Shown one piece after another: positions 22,323-42,076 of a DNA stretch of 64,000 nt. The stretch is from Dehalococcoidia bacterium. Lineage in GTDB: Bacteria; Chloroflexota; Dehalococcoidia; Plut-88900. The first letter of the stretch is position 1, and each line of letters opens with the position of its first letter. The stretch is from contig CBDBLV010000005.1 of NCBI GenBank assembly GCA_965207225.1, forward strand, positions 1,632,001 through 1,696,000, given 5' to 3'. Position numbers and translations under genes: made by a program. A model generated the notes under the pieces. The model was not told where the DNA came from, did no database searches, and worked only from the letters and a program-made list of their open reading frames with translations.

Positions 22323-22340
22323 GGGTGTTGTGGTGGTCGA

Positions 22341-22423
22341 TGATTGAAGGTAGATTGAAGTTGATTGAGTTTGATTGAAGAATGATTGAACGTTGATTGA
22401 ACTCGTAGCTGGTTTGCTTGAAT
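22341..22423 (+). repeat. Phased GATTGA tandem array
   Basis: GATTGA at 22342, 22353, 22363, 22373, 22384, 22395; GCTTGA at 22416. Confidence 0.8.
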
Positions 22424-22519
22424 GACGACTAAAGGGATTAGGGGGAATTTCGCGTGGCGCAGGGGACAAGGGGGAGAGGCAGCAGGGCCACACGAGACGG
22501 ATTGACGAATCTCGGCCCC

Positions 22520-22600
22520 CCACTCGCACTTCGAGAGCCTCAGCACGAGCGGCCCAGCCCCCGGGCATGGGTTCCCGATCGGGGTCGAGAATGACGAAGG
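22520..22600. repeat. Repeat family B and C copies
   Basis: CTTCGAGAGCCTCAGCACGAGCGGCCC and GGGTTCCCGATCGGGGTCGAGAATGACG (cf. 44089, 45069). Confidence 0.7.
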
Positions 22601-22670
22601 GGAGGGGGCGGGTTTTTGATTGTTTTGCGATTTCAGGCATTGGTTTGATTGTTTAAGAAACGGGGAGGGC

Positions 22671-22800
22671 GGAACCCTCACCCCCTTGATCCCCCTCTCC
22701 CTCAGGGCCATTGAGGGAGAGGGGGAGACAAAAACAGAGGCATGCACATGCGCCTTGGCGCATGTGCATGCCTCTAGTTCAATACTGGGAAGAGAGGAGG
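22671..22800. repeat. Repeat family A, full copy with two hairpins
   Basis: CCCCCTCTCCCTCA / TGAGGGAGAGGGGG hairpin plus a perfect 19-bp-arm palindrome at 22736-22775. Confidence 0.8.
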
Positions 22801-22861
22801 GGAAGGTTGGGTTGTTCGGGTGTTGGGTCTGGGTTTGCATTTTGTCTGTTGGGTTGTGGGT

Positions 22862-23307
22862 GGCGATGGAAGACACTTTCTGGACTTTGCCCCTGTTCCT
22901 ATCCAGGCAGCTTGTAGGTGTCCTGGGGTCGGGGGACACCTGCCGCCGGCAATTGCTATGCCTCCACGTACTAAGTACGGGCTGCAAGCCAAACAGGCCG
23001 CGAGCAATCGCCAGCTTCCTCGTACCAAGCAAGTACGGGCCGCAAGGCCACTTACGCCGGTGAGTTCAACGGCCAGGCCCAGCTCCCTGAGGGAGCGGCA
23101 GCATTGGGCTGCCGTCGGAACGGCTATGACATGCCCTGCCGCCAGAGCGCATCTAGGCGCTCGGCCCGCCTCAAACGACGTCGAAAGGACTCGCAGGGGG
23201 GCCAGCCCGACCCTCACGTATGGGAGGGGAAGCCAAGGCCTCGACCCTCATGCACTGAGGGGGAGGCCGGACGGGAACGGTGTAGACCAGAGCGTCTATC
23301 CATCGCC
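22862..23307 (+). ncRNA. Candidate large structured RNA (or ssDNA element), family unknown
   Basis: 5' GGCGATGGAAGAC..TCTGG pairs with 3' CCAGA..GTCTATCCATCGCC; about ten internal hairpins, GCAA tetraloops, G-U pairs favour the plus strand. Confidence 0.5.
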
Positions 23308-23315
23308 TAGATGAT

Positions 23316-23368
23316 CAGGGAAGGGGCACGGGACCCGGGTGGGGTCGGGTGGGCTTCCCTGGGTTTTT
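23316..23368 (+). terminator. Terminator-like hairpin after the structured element
   Basis: CAGGGAAG / CTTCCCTG stem followed by GGTTTTT. Confidence 0.45.
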
Positions 23369-23415
23369 GGTTCCTCCCTTGATGATGTGAGTTAGTGTTC
23401 GATCGAATGCAGGAT

Positions 23416-23444
23416 ATGATAGTATGATCGGACAGGTGTGTCAA
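23416..23444 (-). promoter_or_regulatory. Near-consensus sigma70 promoter pointing at the structured element
   Basis: TTGACA-17 nt-TATCAT on the minus strand. Confidence 0.55.
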
Positions 23445-23512
23445 GAGCAAATGTGCGGCTTTGAGGGGTGAGGGGTAACATACGTGACGAATTGGCAAGG
23501 CGTGGGCATCCC

Positions 23513-23650
23513 CCCGCTCATACTTCGAGTGGCCTCAGCATGAGCGGCCCCGCCCCAGGACGACCCGCCGGTCGCCCCTACGGGGAGGGGACTGGACACC
23601 CCGCACTACCACCTCCCTGGATTCCCCCCGACTCCTCGGGAATGACGAAG
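23513..23650. repeat. Repeat family B and C copies
   Basis: CCGCTCATACTTCGAGTGGCCTCAGCATGAGCGG and GGATTCCC...GGGAATGACG. Confidence 0.7.
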
Positions 23651-23835
23651 GGGAGAGGGGAGGGATTCACGCCATAGGCGCATTTTCGACCCGGTCGCGG
23701 TCGGGAATGATGGGGAGGAGGGGGGTGGGGGGCTATGCTATAATCGGGGGGACAGGCGGAGACCATTCCCATAGGCGCGATCCTCTTTTCCCGCTGATCA
23801 AGCGATAACTTAATCTGTTTCGAGGGAGTGACGGG

Positions 23836-24777
23836 GTGAGAGATGAACTCAAAATCTTCACCGGCAATGCCCACCCGCAACTAGCCGAGGATATCTGCAA
23901 GTACCTCGGCATCAACCTCGGACAGATAGAAGTCTTCGAGTTCAAGAACGAAAACATATTCGTCCGCATCCAGGAGAACATCCGGGAGAGGGACGTTTTC
24001 CTGGTCCAGCCCGTAGTATCCCCGGTCAACAACAACCTGATGGAGCTGTTGATCATGATAGATGCGGCGAAACGGGCGTCGGCGGGGCGGATTACGGCGG
24101 TGGTGCCGTATTATGGATACGGGCGTACGGACAAGAAAGACCAGCCCCGGGTTCCGATAACGGCCAGGCTCGTTGCCGACCTGATCACGGTGGCGGGCGC
24201 CGACCGGCTGCTAACCGTGGACCTGCACGCCGGCCAGATACAGGGGTTCTTCAACATCCCGGTGGATGAATTGACGGCACTTCCCATTATTACCGGCTAT
24301 TTCGAGGAGAAGGCGCTGGATGACGTGGTTGTGGTGGCGACGGACGTCGGGATAGCGAAGAAGGCCCGAGACATGGCGGAAAGGCTGGATGCGCCGCTGG
24401 CGATCATCGAGAAGAGGCGGGTCGGGAACGGGAATCCGGCGGAGAGCCTGAACGTTATAGGAGAGGTCCGGGGCAAGACGGCGATCACCTTCGATGACGA
24501 GATTGATACGGGAGGCTCCCTGGTCTCGGCGATTGATGCGCTGAAGGCCATGGGCGCCGAGGACGTATATTCAAGCTGCACCCACCCGATTTTCTCCGGG
24601 GATGCCACAACCGCTCTTGCAGACACCAGTGTCAAGGAATTCGTAGTGACCGATACGGTGCCCGTGCCCCAGGGCAAGAGGAACGGAAAGGTGACCTGCC
24701 TGTCCATGGCGCCGTTGCTGGGAGAGGCGATAAGGCGGATCCACGGCGGGGAGTCGGTGGGGGCCTTGTTCGGGTGA
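23836..24777 (+). CDS. prs: Ribose-phosphate pyrophosphokinase
   Basis: NLMELLIMIDA, PYYGYGR, DLHAGQIQGFF, DDEIDTGGS. Confidence 0.97.
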   Translation: MRDELKIFTGNAHPQLAEDICKYLGINLGQIEVFEFKNENIFVRIQENIRERDVFLVQPVVSPVNNNLMELLIMIDAAKRASAGRITAVVPYYGYGRTDKKDQPRVPITARLVADLITVAGADRLLTVDLHAGQIQGFFNIPVDELTALPIITGYFEEKALDDVVVVATDVGIAKKARDMAERLDAPLAIIEKRRVGNGNPAESLNVIGEVRGKTAITFDDEIDTGGSLVSAIDALKAMGAEDVYSSCTHPIFSGDATTALADTSVKEFVVTDTVPVPQGKRNGKVTCLSMAPLLGEAIRRIHGGESVGALFG

Positions 24778-39229: not shown

Positions 39230-41020
39230 ATGCGCAACGCCGAAACCATACTGGGAATCATTCGCGACAGAGGTACACGGGGACTGCCCGTGAACGACCT
39301 TTACCGCCAACTTTGGAACCCGAACCTGTACCTGACGGCCTACGGGCGTATCGCCAAGAACGACGGTGCGCTCACCCCAGGCGCAACACCGGAGACCGCA
39401 GACGGGATGAAGATGGACGACATCCACGCGATCATCGAGGCCCTCCGCTTCGAGCGCTACCGATGGACTCCGGCCCGCCGCGTATACATCCCGAAAGCCA
39501 ACGGGAAGCGGCGGCCACTCGGACTCCCAACGTGGTCGGACAAAGTGCTGCAAGAAGTTATGCGTCTCCTACTGGAGGCGTACTACGAACCGCAGTTCAG
39601 CGACCGGTCGCACGGCTTCCGGCCCAACCGTGGATGCCACACGGCGTTCACGGAGATAACCCGCACCTGGACAGGCACGACATGGTTCATCGAAGGAGAT
39701 ATCGCCGGTTGCTTCGACAACATCGACCATAAGGTGTTGCTGGAAATACTAGGCGAGAACATCCAGGACAACCGTTTCCTGCGGCTTGTTTCCAACCTCC
39801 TTGGGGCTGGCTACCTTGAGGACTGGAAGCTCAACGCCACCTACAGTGGCACACCTCAGGGAAGTGTGGTGAGTCCCATACTCGCCAACGTCTACCTAGA
39901 CCGGTTGGACAGGTTCGCGGAGGACGTGCTCTTGCCCGAATACAACCGTGGCACCGGACGACGGAAGAACCCGCAGTATCAAAGGGTTTCCAAACGAGTT
40001 ATGCGTCTACGGCAATCTGGCCATGCAAAGGAAGCGGCGGAACTTCGCCCACTCCTGCGCACCATGCCCAGCCACGACACCCATGACCCGGCCTACCGCC
40101 GTCTCCGGTACACACGGTACGCCGACGACTTTCTACTCGGTTTTGCGGGGCCAAAGAACGAGGCCGATGAGATCAAGGCCCGGCTAGGCAAGTTCCTGCA
40201 AGATAACCTCAAGCTGGAGCTATCCGACGCTAAAACCCTGGTCACCCACGGCCGCACTGAGGCAGCACGGTTCCTCGGCTACGAGGTCGTCGTTCAGGGG
40301 AGCAAAGACAGGCTCGACGCCAGTGGCCGCCGATCGGTCAATGGTATCATCGGGCTGCGCGTTCCCCAAGACGTCGTACGCGCCAAGAGCGCCGCCTACA
40401 TGCGTAACGGCAAACCAATCCACCTTGGAATACGAATTCATGACTCGCTTTACAGCATCGTGGAACAGTACCAGGCGGAGTACCGGGGTGTCGTCAACTA
40501 CTACCGGCGTGCAACCAACCTGGGCGCACTAAGCCATCTCCGTTGGGTCATGGAAATGTCACTTGCCAAGACACTCGCGGCAAAGCTGAAGATCAGCGTG
40601 CCACAGGTGTTCAAGCGGTACAAAACTACGATTCAGACTGACAAAGGGCCTCGCAAGGTCCTGATGGTGAAAGTGGCCGAGCCGGGCGAAAAGACGCTGG
40701 TGACGTACTGGGGCGGGGTTTCGCTTGCGCGGGACAACGCGGCAACCCTGGTCGATAAACACCCCCCGATACTCAATAGTCGGACGGAACTCGAACAGCG
40801 CCTGCGGGCCAACGTCTGCGAGCTTTGCGGCTCAACGGTGAAGGTCCAGGTGCACCACGTACGAGCGCTGAAAGACTTGCGAAAGAAGGGACGGGCCAAG
40901 CCGCCCGTTTGGGTGGAGGTCATGGCAGCACGGCGTCGCAAGACGCTCGTGGCCTGTGCGTCATGCCACGCGGACATCCACGCCGGACGCCCGCTGAAGC
41001 AGAACGAACAGGCAGCCTGA
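39230..41020 (+). CDS. ltrA: Group II intron reverse transcriptase/maturase with C-terminal HNH-type domain
   Basis: RPLGLP, SHGFRP, GDIAGCFD, GTPQGS, RYADD, CELCG..HH..CxxCH; AAGGAGGT RBS. Confidence 0.96.
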   Translation: MRNAETILGIIRDRGTRGLPVNDLYRQLWNPNLYLTAYGRIAKNDGALTPGATPETADGMKMDDIHAIIEALRFERYRWTPARRVYIPKANGKRRPLGLPTWSDKVLQEVMRLLLEAYYEPQFSDRSHGFRPNRGCHTAFTEITRTWTGTTWFIEGDIAGCFDNIDHKVLLEILGENIQDNRFLRLVSNLLGAGYLEDWKLNATYSGTPQGSVVSPILANVYLDRLDRFAEDVLLPEYNRGTGRRKNPQYQRVSKRVMRLRQSGHAKEAAELRPLLRTMPSHDTHDPAYRRLRYTRYADDFLLGFAGPKNEADEIKARLGKFLQDNLKLELSDAKTLVTHGRTEAARFLGYEVVVQGSKDRLDASGRRSVNGIIGLRVPQDVVRAKSAAYMRNGKPIHLGIRIHDSLYSIVEQYQAEYRGVVNYYRRATNLGALSHLRWVMEMSLAKTLAAKLKISVPQVFKRYKTTIQTDKGPRKVLMVKVAEPGEKTLVTYWGGVSLARDNAATLVDKHPPILNSRTELEQRLRANVCELCGSTVKVQVHHVRALKDLRKKGRAKPPVWVEVMAARRRKTLVACASCHADIHAGRPLKQNEQAA

Positions 41021-41653: not shown

Positions 41654-42076
41654 ACAGGCTCACACGAGCCTGGCCCCTACGATGCGGACGGTGCCACCGG
41701 CACCTCACCACAGACGCTACCTCCTGTAACGACACCGGAGAGCCGGATGACGCGAAAGTGTCACGTCCGGTTCGGAGGGGGGCCGACGGAAAAGTGCTCC
41801 ATTAGCGCGGAGTAACTCGCCGGCGGCCTACCCGACACTTGTAGGGTGAGCGGCAGTTTCTCAGGGGAGGCGCGGGCCAAGAGCCTTGCGAAATACCCGG
41901 GCATCGAGGGAGCGGCGTGAATGTGCGGTATATGGCACCGTGTTCATTGGCCCACGTGCGTGATTGACGCCCAGCTCAAGAAGGACCAACCATAGCTACG
42001 ATGCGCGTGGGCGCCGTGAATCATGGCGCGAAATATCATGGATCCGGTTAGAGCTTCCTCTACCGTCAGCTTGAGG

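What the first reader, a model, noticed from the sequence alone, without database searches (positions are those of the whole stretch)
22862..23307. Unrecognised ~446-nt multi-hairpin element closed by a long-range helix
The ends pair (GGCGATGGA-AGAC..TCTGG with CCAGA..GTCT-A-TCCATCGCC, then CTGTTCCTATCC with GGACGGGAACGG). Inside are about ten hairpins, including GCGA-GCAA-TCGC and GGCC-GCAA-GGCC, and a duplicated two-hairpin module CGTAC..GTACG-GGC.GCAA..CC (22967-22990, 23021-23049). A terminator-like hairpin follows. I see no RNase P, tmRNA, SRP, 6S or intron hallmarks. Inference: a novel large ncRNA, or a folded ssDNA signal from a mobile element.
Basis: partly seen in the sequence, partly recalled or inferred. 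Interest (0 to 1): 0.7.

Follow-up and report, generated by a model that had tools for sequence, protein, structure and literature searches.

The report
Promoter-driven structured RNA repeat cassette
The folded 446-base stretch is real, but it is one interchangeable "body" of a repeated, promoter-carrying non-coding RNA cassette found 20-52 times per genome in a single uncultured Dehalococcoidia genus, most likely read from the opposite strand to the one first assumed.

Summary
Window 22862-23307 folds far better than shuffles on both strands (z -5.6 and -7.3), is closed by the helices described, and matches no Rfam family.

It is not a lone RNA gene. It is one of at least 16 body types (173-546 nt), all clamped by the same helix (GGCGATGGA...TCCATCGCC). 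The bodies sit in a shared scaffold that recurs 20-52 times in each of the 9 genomes of one Dehalococcoidia genus. The scaffold's junction motif occurs 0-1 times in each of 392 other genomes of the class.

The scaffold carries a conserved sigma-70 promoter on the minus strand, pointing into the body (at least 9 of 12 consensus bases in 96 of 113 loci). After it come an AGGAGG motif with no start codon, a hairpin, the body, and a C-rich, G-poor tail. In 26 of 31 loci the next gene runs the same way as this promoter. Metatranscriptome contigs cover the body.

The ten copies of this body type show almost no covariation (1 of 140 pairs); their differences lie in loops. Elements are present or absent, and differ in type, at orthologous sites. 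Function is unknown. The closest analogues are mosaic repeats such as pneumococcal BOX elements.

The parts
23416..23444 (-). Sigma-70-type promoter firing into the element: TTGACA (23444-23439), 17-nt spacer, TATCAT (23421-23416).
   Evidence: 11 of 12 consensus bases, and the only promoter-like site in 22400-23850 (shuffles average 0.4); a site at the equivalent position scores at least 9 of 12 in 96 of 113 family loci, against 4 of 113 on the plus strand of the same tails and 3 of 113 in shuffled tails. Coordinates checked.
23379..23468 (-). Tail module holding the promoter, the presumed transcription start (about 23409) and the palindrome TTCGATCGAA (23398-23407). Family similarity ends at about 23468 (...GCGGCTTTGAGGGG).
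   Evidence: the tail is conserved in several sequence subtypes across 34 G000 loci and ends at TTTTGGGG-like letters..
23373..23378 (-). Shine-Dalgarno-like GGGAGG in the 5' leader with no start codon after it (AGGAGG in most copies).
   Evidence: 32 of 34 G000 loci chosen by the hairpin and T-run alone carry AGGAGG here. This copy has GGGAGG; the 16S rRNA 3' end is ...GGATCACCTCCTTTCT. The absence of ATG, GTG or TTG in the following bases was read from the sequence.
23316..23370 (-). Scaffold hairpin CAGGGAAG...CTTCCCTG (23316-23361) with an adjoining T-run (A-run on the minus strand). On the plus strand it looks like an intrinsic terminator; on the minus strand it is a 5' stem-loop. Other copies carry a 100-180-nt structured insert in its loop.
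   Evidence: (linker lengths 43-196 nt).
22862..23307 (-). The reported element, here called the D-type body: a multi-hairpin domain clamped by P1 (22862-22874 with 23294-23307) and P2 (22893-22904 with 23269-23280).
   Evidence: Folds. Ten full copies in three genomes. Stems are conserved and loops vary. No Rfam match.
22805..22861 (-). The U module: a C/A-rich, G-poor, unpaired 3' tail on the minus strand (G/T-rich on the plus strand). Candidate Rho loading site.
   Evidence: shared module; 113 tails average C 40%, G 13%, A 39%, U 8%; unpaired in the fold of the whole minus-strand transcript. Rho is encoded in the genome.
22736..22775 (-). Intrinsic terminator on the minus strand: a 19-bp stem followed by GTTTTTG. 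It would end the minus-strand RNA before the convergent upstream gene.
   Evidence: modules of the same kind, with different stems that still pair, follow the tail in several other copies.
22324..23727 (.). A 1.4-kb composite of repeat modules that includes the element. It is absent from the orthologous site in six congeners.
   Evidence: in G001, G002, G003, G004, G006 and G007 the stop codon of the upstream gene abuts the prs promoter. G008 carries a D-type element here and G005 a shorter relative.

Best explanation
The 446-nt stretch is the variable, helix-clamped body of one copy of a genus-specific modular repeat. Each copy is a self-contained non-coding transcription unit read from the minus strand of this window.

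In RNA sense the unit runs as follows:
- a sigma-70 promoter (23444-23416);
- a leader of about 35 nt with a perfect or near-perfect Shine-Dalgarno-like AGGAGG and no start codon;
- a scaffold hairpin (23361-23316);
- the P1/P2-clamped body (23307-22862);
- a C-rich, G-poor, unpaired tail of about 57 nt (22861-22805);
- in this copy, an intrinsic terminator (22775-22736).

Shown: the modular architecture, the copy numbers and their restriction to one genus, the conserved promoter, the orientation bias relative to neighbouring genes, presence or absence and type differences at orthologous sites, conserved stems with variable loops, and RNA-library contigs over the body.

Inferred:
1. The AGGAGG motif binds 30S subunits and shields the 5' end from RNase J, in the manner of STAB-SD.
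2. P1 clamps a stable structured domain.
3. The C-rich tail loads Rho to end the untranslated transcript where no hairpin terminator follows. Otherwise transcription reads on into the next gene, which is usually co-directional.
4. Copies spread and exchange bodies, hairpin inserts and tails by recombination between the shared modules.

Whether the RNA serves the host or only the element is open.
For: Family and range. There are two full copies in G000, four in G008 and four in G005, and only the termini match elsewhere in the genus. The junction motif TCCATCGCC-N4-12-GGGAAGG occurs 20-52 times in each of 9 of 9 genus genomes and 0-1 times in each of 392 other Dehalococcoidia genomes. The terminator-side pattern gave 91 stretches, and all 80 listed lie in Dehalococcoidia MAG records.

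Modules. Of 120 loci, 113 could be parsed. They fall into 16 clusters of bodies, 173-546 nt long, all in one orientation: 0 minus-strand HSPs longer than 60 nt against 2101 plus-strand HSPs. The same D-type body sits with different hairpin variants and different tail subtypes.

Strand. The minus-strand promoter scores at least 9 of 12 in 96 of 113 loci, with its -10 end 38-46 nt from the T-run in 109 of 113. The plus-strand control scores that high in 4 of 113 and shuffles in 3 of 113. The window's own site scores 11 of 12. AGGAGG is present in 32 of 34 loci and is complementary to the 16S 3' end. The tail averages C 40% and G 13%. RNase J and Rho are both encoded.

Orientation. The gene on the tail-distal (U) side is co-directional with the promoter in 26 of 31 G000 loci. 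Of those 26 ORFs, 25 have Pfam families, all diverse housekeeping genes.

Structure. The whole minus-strand transcript folds at z -8.2. In the D-type, 34 of 280 paired columns vary against 101 of 182 unpaired columns. A sister body type has 9 of 98 pairs with compensatory changes, against 4.2 +/- 1.3 in shuffles (0 of 500 as high).

RNA. Contigs from three metatranscriptome runs of one study cover 22922-23337 at word depth of about 47-51. Their variant letters match the G005-like copies, and their loose ends lead into other family members.
Against: No stranded reads were available, so the strand rests on promoter logic alone. The RNA-run contigs show neither strand nor ends, and DNA carry-over cannot be excluded.

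The structural tests do not pick a strand. In helices shared by both strands, G-U-compatible cells number 38 on the plus strand and 55 on the minus strand. GNRA loops favour the plus strand (18 against 3), while UNCG loops favour the minus strand (16 against 0). The plus strand has the better MFE in 95 of 111 bodies.

Within the D-type itself only 1 of 140 pairs shows a compensatory change. The paired-versus-unpaired contrast uses a structure derived from the same alignment, which is partly circular.

This window's copy is one of the 5 of 31 loci that are convergent with the neighbouring gene. The gene calls behind the 26 of 31 count came from a crude GC3 filter, and of the 5 convergent ORFs only the window's was checked against Pfam.

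The STAB-SD-like and Rho-loading roles are inferred from sequence composition only.
Confidence: 0.55

Rival explanations
1. Selfish mosaic DNA repeat (MITE-, BIME- or BOX-like). On this view the hairpins matter as DNA, or are by-products of nested insertions of small palindromic modules, and transcription is incidental and without function.
For: The family is multi-copy and confined to one genus. Modules are mosaic and nested, including hairpin inserts and REP-like units. Sites differ in occupancy: the prs site is empty in six congeners, and six loci filled in other species look empty in G000, one of them cleanly (L052, a 768-nt insert). Different family members occupy the same orthologous site in 11 of 15 pairs. 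Mismatches in stems show no strand bias, as expected for DNA-level palindromes or for recent neutral change. Croucher et al. 2011 reached this conclusion for pneumococcal BOX, RUP and SPRITE repeats (PMC3049150, abstract read).
Against: A strong promoter, the AGGAGG motif and the C-rich tail are kept at fixed positions in nearly all copies, across tail subtypes whose spacers differ. That is hard to explain if the RNA is irrelevant. The ends of the unit are not inverted repeats, and no target duplication is visible at the one clean junction. No autonomous partner was found: in G000 every upstream-module hit lies in the same repeat unit as a hairpin-module hit, and the units span at most 728 nt. 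Helices pairing across about 400 nt (P1, P2) need a single strand to form.
Confidence: 0.22
2. Mobile promoter-plus-leader cassette acting in cis. The minus-strand promoter and the stabilised structured leader drive or tune the co-directional downstream gene.
For: The next gene is co-directional in 26 of 31 loci. In 15 of those 26, no terminator-like hairpin was found within 330 nt after the clamp. The downstream genes include recA, nusA, leuS, a GlnRS/GluRS-type synthetase, ribF, lgt, FBPase, moaA, katG and speH.
Against: The host genes keep their own promoters between the tail and the start codon. Six congeners do without any insert upstream of prs. The C-rich tail and, in several copies, a hairpin terminator would end transcription before the gene. 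This window's copy faces a convergent gene. The orientation bias can equally come from selection against antisense read-through.
Confidence: 0.13
3. Plus-strand large ncRNA. It would run from the G/T-rich upstream module through the body to the hairpin and T-run terminator, with GNRA tetraloops.
For: GCGA-GCAA-TCGC is invariant in all 10 copies. GNRA loops number 18 on the plus strand and 3 on the minus strand across the family, and the plus-strand MFE is better in 95 of 111 bodies. The hairpin plus T-run reads as an intrinsic terminator on the plus strand.
Against: No plus-strand promoter-like site was found upstream in the window. In 26 of 31 loci a plus-strand transcript would have to start inside, and antisense to, the neighbouring gene. 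The GGCC-GCAA-GGCC loop is not conserved. For this body type the minus strand folds better. Conserved letters continue about 100 nt past the 'terminator' and contain the minus-strand promoter.
Confidence: 0.06
4. Guide or partner RNA of a mobile-element enzyme: TnpB/IscB omega-RNA, IS110 bridge RNA, retron msr-msd, or a Y RNA bound by Ro.
For: The element is multi-copy and has a conserved closing helix around a variable interior. The genome encodes four reverse-transcriptase ORFs.
Against: No match in G000 to the TnpB zinc-ribbon domain, the Y1 transposase, the IS110 DEDD transposase or TROVE/Ro. No Rfam match to HEARO or to any other family. The nearest RT match (RVT_1; window about 39488-40288) is roughly 16 kb away and lies 1.5 kb upstream of a group II intron domain V-VI match. 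The genome is 92.3% complete, so absence is not proven.
Confidence: 0.04

Closest known systems
Pneumococcal BOX (with RUP and SPRITE) interspersed repeats
   Same: Modular build from shared end modules and variable middle modules. Restricted to one species or genus. Extensive predicted secondary structure. Intergenic, transcribed with neighbouring genes, and with a slow turnover of insertion sites. (Croucher et al. 2011, PMC3049150; abstract read.)
   Different: These units are much larger (about 0.5-0.9 kb). Each carries its own conserved sigma-70 promoter, an AGGAGG motif and a C-rich tail. The middle is one of at least 16 complex multi-hairpin bodies clamped by one invariant helix.
MITEs and enterobacterial BIME/REP mosaics (features recalled, not taken from a call)
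   Same: Non-coding, multi-copy, intergenic, with mosaic and nested module combinations and presence/absence polymorphism.
   Different: There are no terminal inverted repeats at the ends of the unit, and no target duplication at the clean junction. No RAYT/Y1 gene was found. The inverted repeat (P1) is internal, and the body always keeps one orientation relative to the scaffold.
Large ornate bacterial ncRNAs (OLE, ROOL, GOLLD, HEARO, raiA), all represented in Rfam (family names recalled)
   Same: Several hundred nucleotides long, multi-hairpin, closed by long-range helices, and without coding capacity.
   Different: No Rfam model matches. Those RNAs are defined by strong covariation and usually occur once or a few times per genome. 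Here there are 20-52 copies with interchangeable bodies and little covariation within this body type.
STAB-SD 5' stabiliser of Bacillus mRNAs
   Same: A Shine-Dalgarno-like sequence near the 5' end that starts no ORF. RNase J is encoded in this genome. Sources: the title of Agaisse and Lereclus 1996 was seen only in the reference list of PMC7509114. The abstract start of PMC5737220, seen in a search listing, says that ribosomes at a strong SD block RNase J1.
   Different: The resemblance rests on sequence only and no stability data exist. Here the motif heads a non-coding structured RNA, not an mRNA.

Membership tests
Any Rfam 15 family | A covariance-model match at or above the family's gathering score. 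| tested here: not met
   (whole window): the only match is Intron_gpII at 41738-41836. (22600-23500, E<=10): nothing near a gathering score on the element. (14 other body types): only flanking tRNAs and two chance hits to miRNA precursor families.
MITE | Terminal inverted repeats at the element's ends. | tested here: not met
   The unit's ends (about GGTTGTTCGG... on the left and ...TTTTGGGG on the right) are not reverse complements. The 11-15-bp inverted repeat (P1) is internal.
MITE | A target-site duplication flanking the insert. | tested here: inconclusive
   Only one clean filled/empty pair was found (L052 against G000 C5:305038-305049). The insertion lies between a run of C and a run of A (RNA sense), and both junctions are ambiguous. 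No clear duplication is visible.
MITE | An autonomous relative with the same ends that encodes a transposase. | tested here: not met
   In G000 every upstream-module hit lies in the same repeat unit as a hairpin-module hit, and the units span at most 728 nt. Other genomes were not searched for this.
Mosaic interspersed repeats (BOX/BIME type) | Built from a small set of modules in varying combinations, high copy number, and narrow taxonomic range. | tested here: met
   (modules and their combinations). (20-52 copies in each of 9 of 9 genus genomes, 0-1 in each of 392 others).
IS200/IS605 derivatives (PATE, TnpB omega-RNA) | A Y1 transposase and/or TnpB in the genome, and subterminal ssDNA hairpins. 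| tested here: not met
   PF01797 and PF07282: 0 matches in G000, while the control genomes gave matches. The genome is 92.3% complete.
IS110 bridge RNA | An adjacent IS110 DEDD recombinase. | tested here: not met
   PF01548: 0 matches in G000.
Retron msr-msd | A reverse-transcriptase gene immediately downstream of an ncRNA bracketed by inverted repeats. | tested here: not met
   Four RT ORFs in G000, none next to the element. The one in the window starts about 16 kb away and lies 1.5 kb upstream of a group II intron domain V-VI match.
Y RNA | A Ro/Rsr (TROVE) protein that binds the closing helix. | tested here: not met
   PF05731: 0 matches in G000.
STAB-SD-like 5' stabiliser (works like, not a membership claim) | An SD complementary to the 16S 3' end, near the 5' end, with no start codon at initiation distance. 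| tested here: met
   32 of 34 loci; 16S 3' end; no ATG, GTG or TTG follows. The stabilising effect itself cannot be tested with these tools.
Rho-dependent terminator (rut site; works like) | An untranslated, C-rich, G-poor, unstructured RNA stretch of about 60 nt or more, with Rho present. | tested here: met
   C 40%, G 13%; 83 of 113 tails have C>=35% and G<=15%; unpaired in the fold. Rho is encoded. Actual termination cannot be tested here.
Protein-coding gene | A conserved reading frame. | tested here: not met
   Gaps of 1 and 2 nt are scattered through the 10-copy alignment. The three ORFs overlapping the element have no Pfam family.

The most novel reading that the evidence does not exclude
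A genus-wide system of 20-52 promoter-driven RNAs per genome. Each displays one of at least 16 interchangeable ornate domains on a constant scaffold: a 5' ribosome-binding-like stabiliser, the P1 clamp, and a Rho-loading tail. The bodies would be swapped between loci by recombination and would act in trans, for example as a repertoire of structured decoys or scaffolds for proteins or phage factors. That would be a new class of cassette-type structured RNA rather than junk repeats.
Probability: 0.2. Interest if true: 0.85.

Novelty: new variant of a known kind. Interest (0 to 1): 0.58.

Why it matters
If the minus-strand RNAs are real and functional, this would be an unusual case. A bacterial genus would be investing in dozens of independently promoted non-coding RNAs of 0.6-0.9 kb, with bodies drawn from a repertoire of complex folds on a constant scaffold.

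Even on the selfish-repeat reading, it is a clear example of a mosaic repeat that carries its own promoter, a ribosome-binding-like 5' motif and a Rho-type tail. That would matter for annotating and interpreting transcription in Dehalococcoidia genomes assembled from metagenomes.

It is also a practical warning. A striking fold with a z-score below -5 and no Rfam match need not be a single-copy RNA gene on the strand that looks best.

Tried and rejected
Strand tests from structure
- The G-U versus A-C test in helices shared by both strands gave 38 against 55 and was inconclusive.
- Tetraloop counts and MFE comparisons contradicted each other.

Searches that found nothing useful
- Plasmid collection: no match to the element, and an unrelated Ralstonia hit to a flank.
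- Metagenome contigs: 0 matches both for a D-type-specific 20-mer and for the family's 24-mer.
- Viral contigs: the junction motif gave more than 120 stretches. None of the 80 fetched carries the family's hairpin module. Five carry a one-mismatch P1-like word in unrelated contexts. I read these as chance hits.
- Papers: two literature searches for such repeats in Dehalococcoidia or Chloroflexi returned nothing relevant (listings only). My statement that the family is not in print rests on those two searches and on Rfam.

A second scaffold with the same clamp
- Seven G000 copies of a second scaffold have AAGGAG followed by ATG in 6 of 7 (read by eye). The frame into the body is not kept and body lengths differ by non-multiples of 3, so I rejected coding. 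The script crashed after the first copy.

Element ends from orthologous sites
- Attempts at the leuS and ribF loci were swamped by repeat hits. They showed only that orthologous homology stops where the upstream module begins.
- Five other apparently empty sites in G000 were found. The three I inspected (L076, L078, L079) carry 19-53 nt of unrelated sequence and gave no clean junction. L063 and L066 were not inspected.

RNA-run coverage
- Parts of the unit without cover in the RNA runs (22664-22909 and from 23402 on) are not evidence of absence. The contigs break at shared modules and come from a relative about 90% identical.

Full report
**Observation**

P1 pairs GGCGATGGAAGAC (22862-22874) with GTCTATCCATCGCC (23294-23307). 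P2 pairs CTGTTCCTATCC (22893-22904) with GGACGGGAACGG (23269-23280). Between them lie about a dozen hairpins.

Both strands fold far better than dinucleotide shuffles. The plus strand gives -226.1 against -185.6 +/- 7.2 kcal/mol (z -5.6). The minus strand gives -237.0 against -191.3 +/- 6.3 (z -7.3). In both cases 0 of 100 shuffles fold as well.

Rfam 15 has no family for the element, either at gathering score or at E<=10. ORFs overlapping it have no Pfam family. The ten aligned copies differ by scattered 1- and 2-nt gaps, so it is not coding.

**Not a lone gene**

The query has a second copy in the same genome (94% identical), four copies in G008 (91-93%) and four in G005 (86-87%). In the other six congeners only its first 39 nt or so and last 44 nt or so recur. 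Nothing was found in 32 genomes outside the genus.

Aligning copies with their flanks showed that conservation runs beyond the 446 nt on both sides. Dissecting the own genome gave a modular unit. Written on the plus strand it is:
- a G/T-rich module U of about 57 nt;
- a body closed by GGCGATGGA...TCCATCGCC;
- a short linker;
- a hairpin CAGGGAAG...CTTCCCTG followed by a T-run, often with a structured insert of 100-180 nt in its loop;
- the motif TTCCTCCTT;
- a tail of about 100 nt that comes in several sequence subtypes and ends at TTTTGGGG-like letters.

Of 120 loci (80 from congeners plus 40 pattern hits in G000, a few of them false), 113 could be parsed. Their bodies fall into 16 similarity clusters, 173-546 nt long. 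They always have the same orientation relative to the scaffold: 0 minus-strand HSPs longer than 60 nt against 2101 plus-strand HSPs. The reported element, which I call the D-type, is a minor type.

The same D-type body is found with different hairpin variants and different tails. A shorter type in G005 and a 432-nt type in G007 share only P1 and P2 with it. A second scaffold with the same clamp occurs seven times in G000.

**Range**

The record titles of the genome-contig hits name uncultured Dehalococcoidia MAGs.

The junction motif TCCATCGCC-N4-12-GGGAAGG occurs 36 times in G000 and 20-52 times in each of the eight congeners. It occurs 0-1 times in each of 392 other Dehalococcoidia genomes: 19 have a single hit, and the reversed control pattern gives a similar background. 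The three other genera of the same family each have 0. One of the 392 genomes, G243, is flagged as unpublished; it contributes only one chance match to that tally.

Metagenome contigs gave no match. Matches in viral contigs were chance hits. Fourteen representatives of other body types have no Rfam family.

**Which strand**

The only sigma-70-like site in 22400-23850 lies on the minus strand, downstream of the supposed terminator and pointing into the element: TTGACA-17-TATCAT at 23444-23416, 11 of 12 consensus bases.

Across the family a site scoring at least 9 of 12 sits at the same place in 96 of 113 loci. Its -10 end lies 38-46 nt from the T-run in 109 of 113. This holds even though the tail subtypes differ in their spacer sequences. 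The plus strand of the same tails reaches 9 of 12 in 4 of 113 loci, and shuffled tails in 3 of 113.

Read on the minus strand, the unit looks like a transcription unit:
- a promoter;
- a leader with AGGAGG, present in 32 of 34 loci chosen without reference to it, complementary to the 16S 3' end ...CACCTCCTTTCT, and not followed by a start codon;
- a 5' hairpin;
- the clamped body;
- a tail that averages C 40%, G 13%, A 39%, U 8% over 113 copies and is unpaired in the fold of the whole 680-nt transcript (-313.8 kcal/mol, z -8.2).

In this window a 19-bp minus-strand terminator follows at 22775-22736. RNase J and Rho are both encoded in the genome.

Independent support that the promoter is active comes from gene orientation. 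In 26 of 31 G000 loci the gene beyond the tail runs in the same direction as the promoter; I calculate a one-sided binomial probability of about 1e-4. Those genes are unrelated housekeeping genes, including recA, nusA, leuS, ribF, lgt, FBPase, moaA, katG and speH. Of the 26 ORFs, 25 have Pfam families, and the 26th call overlies a tRNA-like sequence. The gene calls came from a GC3 filter, and of the five convergent ORFs only the window's own was checked against Pfam.

Structure does not decide the strand. G-U-compatible mismatches in strand-shared helices number 38 on the plus strand and 55 on the minus strand. GNRA loops favour the plus strand, UNCG loops favour the minus strand, and most bodies, though not the D-type, have a lower MFE on the plus strand.

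**Is the fold under constraint?**

Among the ten D-type copies (91% mean column identity), the consensus fold has 140 pairs, but only one shows a compensatory change. Differences sit in loops and junctions: 34 of 280 paired columns vary against 101 of 182 unpaired columns. That test is partly circular, because the structure was derived from the same alignment.

A larger sister type (15 sequences) has 9 of 98 pairs with changes on both sides, against 4.2 +/- 1.3 in shuffles (0 of 500 as high). It has 97% paired cells, against 35-48% when the partners are slid by 1-3 columns.

The evidence for a conserved fold is therefore moderate for the family and weak for this body type by covariation alone.

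**Expression**

Contigs from three metatranscriptome runs of one study cover 22922-23337 at word depths of about 47-51. Their variant letters match the G005-type copies. Their loose ends continue into other body types and hairpin variants, so several family members are present in those libraries. Contigs give no strand and no ends, and DNA carry-over cannot be ruled out. I treat this as a weak hint.

**Mobility**

Six congeners have nothing between the stop codon of the upstream PLP-enzyme gene and the prs promoter. G000 has a 1.4-kb composite of repeats there (22324-23727). G008 has a D-type element and G005 a shorter relative.

Among the loci from other species whose two flanks both map in G000, six look empty in G000. 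One of these is clean: L052, a 768-nt insert placed directly after a T-run, with no inverted ends and no clear duplication. Fifteen are filled in G000, but in 11 of the 15 the body type differs between species. In the one case I inspected, the whole unit differs and the surrounding modules are rearranged as well.

The genome has no detectable TnpB, Y1 transposase, IS110 transposase or Ro protein. It has four reverse-transcriptase ORFs; the one in the window lies 1.5 kb upstream of a group II intron domain V-VI match, and none is next to the element.

I infer that copies spread and exchange modules mainly by recombination between shared modules. The primary insertion mechanism is unknown.

**Verdict**

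The unit, the strand and the supposed uniqueness are wrong.

My best reading (0.55) is that this is a minus-strand, promoter-driven non-coding RNA cassette belonging to a genus-specific mosaic repeat family. The roles I propose for its parts are inferred from sequence only: an AGGAGG stabiliser in the manner of STAB-SD, a structural clamp, and a Rho-loading tail.

The rivals are:
- a purely selfish DNA mosaic repeat (0.22);
- a cis-acting promoter and leader cassette (0.13);
- a partner RNA of a mobile-element enzyme (0.04).

The closest described analogues are the pneumococcal BOX, RUP and SPRITE repeats (PMC3049150, abstract read). The present family differs from them in size, in carrying its own promoter, and in its repertoire of clamped bodies.

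Noticed in passing
window 41738-41836 (+), with RT matches at about 39488-40288 (+): A group II intron domain V-VI match (62.8 bits) lies 1.5 kb downstream of a match to the reverse-transcriptase family RVT_1. G000 holds four such RT ORFs in two pairs (586 aa twice, and 641 and 652 aa).
   Followed up: partly
window 22342-22402; also between the repeat and the next gene at about eight other G000 loci (output): Runs of GATTGAA-like heptamers (TTCAATCAA on the other strand) recur just upstream of unrelated genes, often next to the phrase ...CGTCATTCAATCAAA.... This looks like another shared intergenic module, possibly a binding-site array.
   Followed up: no
window 22528-22620 and 23520-23660: REP-like units of the form GGATTCC, a short palindrome, then GGAATGACG flank the element. 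They recur throughout the genome and inside the hairpin inserts of the family, yet no Y1/RAYT gene was detected.
   Followed up: partly
window 22665-22780 (-), with equivalents beside many family copies: A two-hairpin module: CCCCCTCTCCC..GGGAGAGGGGG plus a terminator hairpin. In the terminator the conserved flanks (AACTAGAGGC ... GCCTCTGTT) enclose stems that differ between copies yet still pair. This looks like a mobile terminator module with real covariation.
   Followed up: partly
G000 C3:167328-167681, C3:255807-256154, C5:1189888-1190351, C5:1330718-1331071, C2:179536-179991, C5:1005080-1005543, C5:1737119-1737472: A second scaffold carries the same P1 clamp. On the minus strand it has a TATACT -10 box, then AAGGAG followed by ATG in 6 of 7 copies. 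This opens an Arg-rich reading frame that is not kept into the body.
   Followed up: partly
window 23300-23315, and the same place in many copies: The linker after P1 (CCATCGCC-TGG-ATGG; CCATCGCC-TAG-ATGA in this copy) can form a small alternative hairpin with the P1 strand itself. That would compete with closure of the clamp.
   Followed up: no
window 23728-23760, and G000 C2 about 324250: Host genes downstream of the repeats keep short promoters of their own with TATAAT. In the MFS transporter gene the box sits only 7 nt before the ATG, which suggests leaderless mRNAs in this genus.
   Followed up: no
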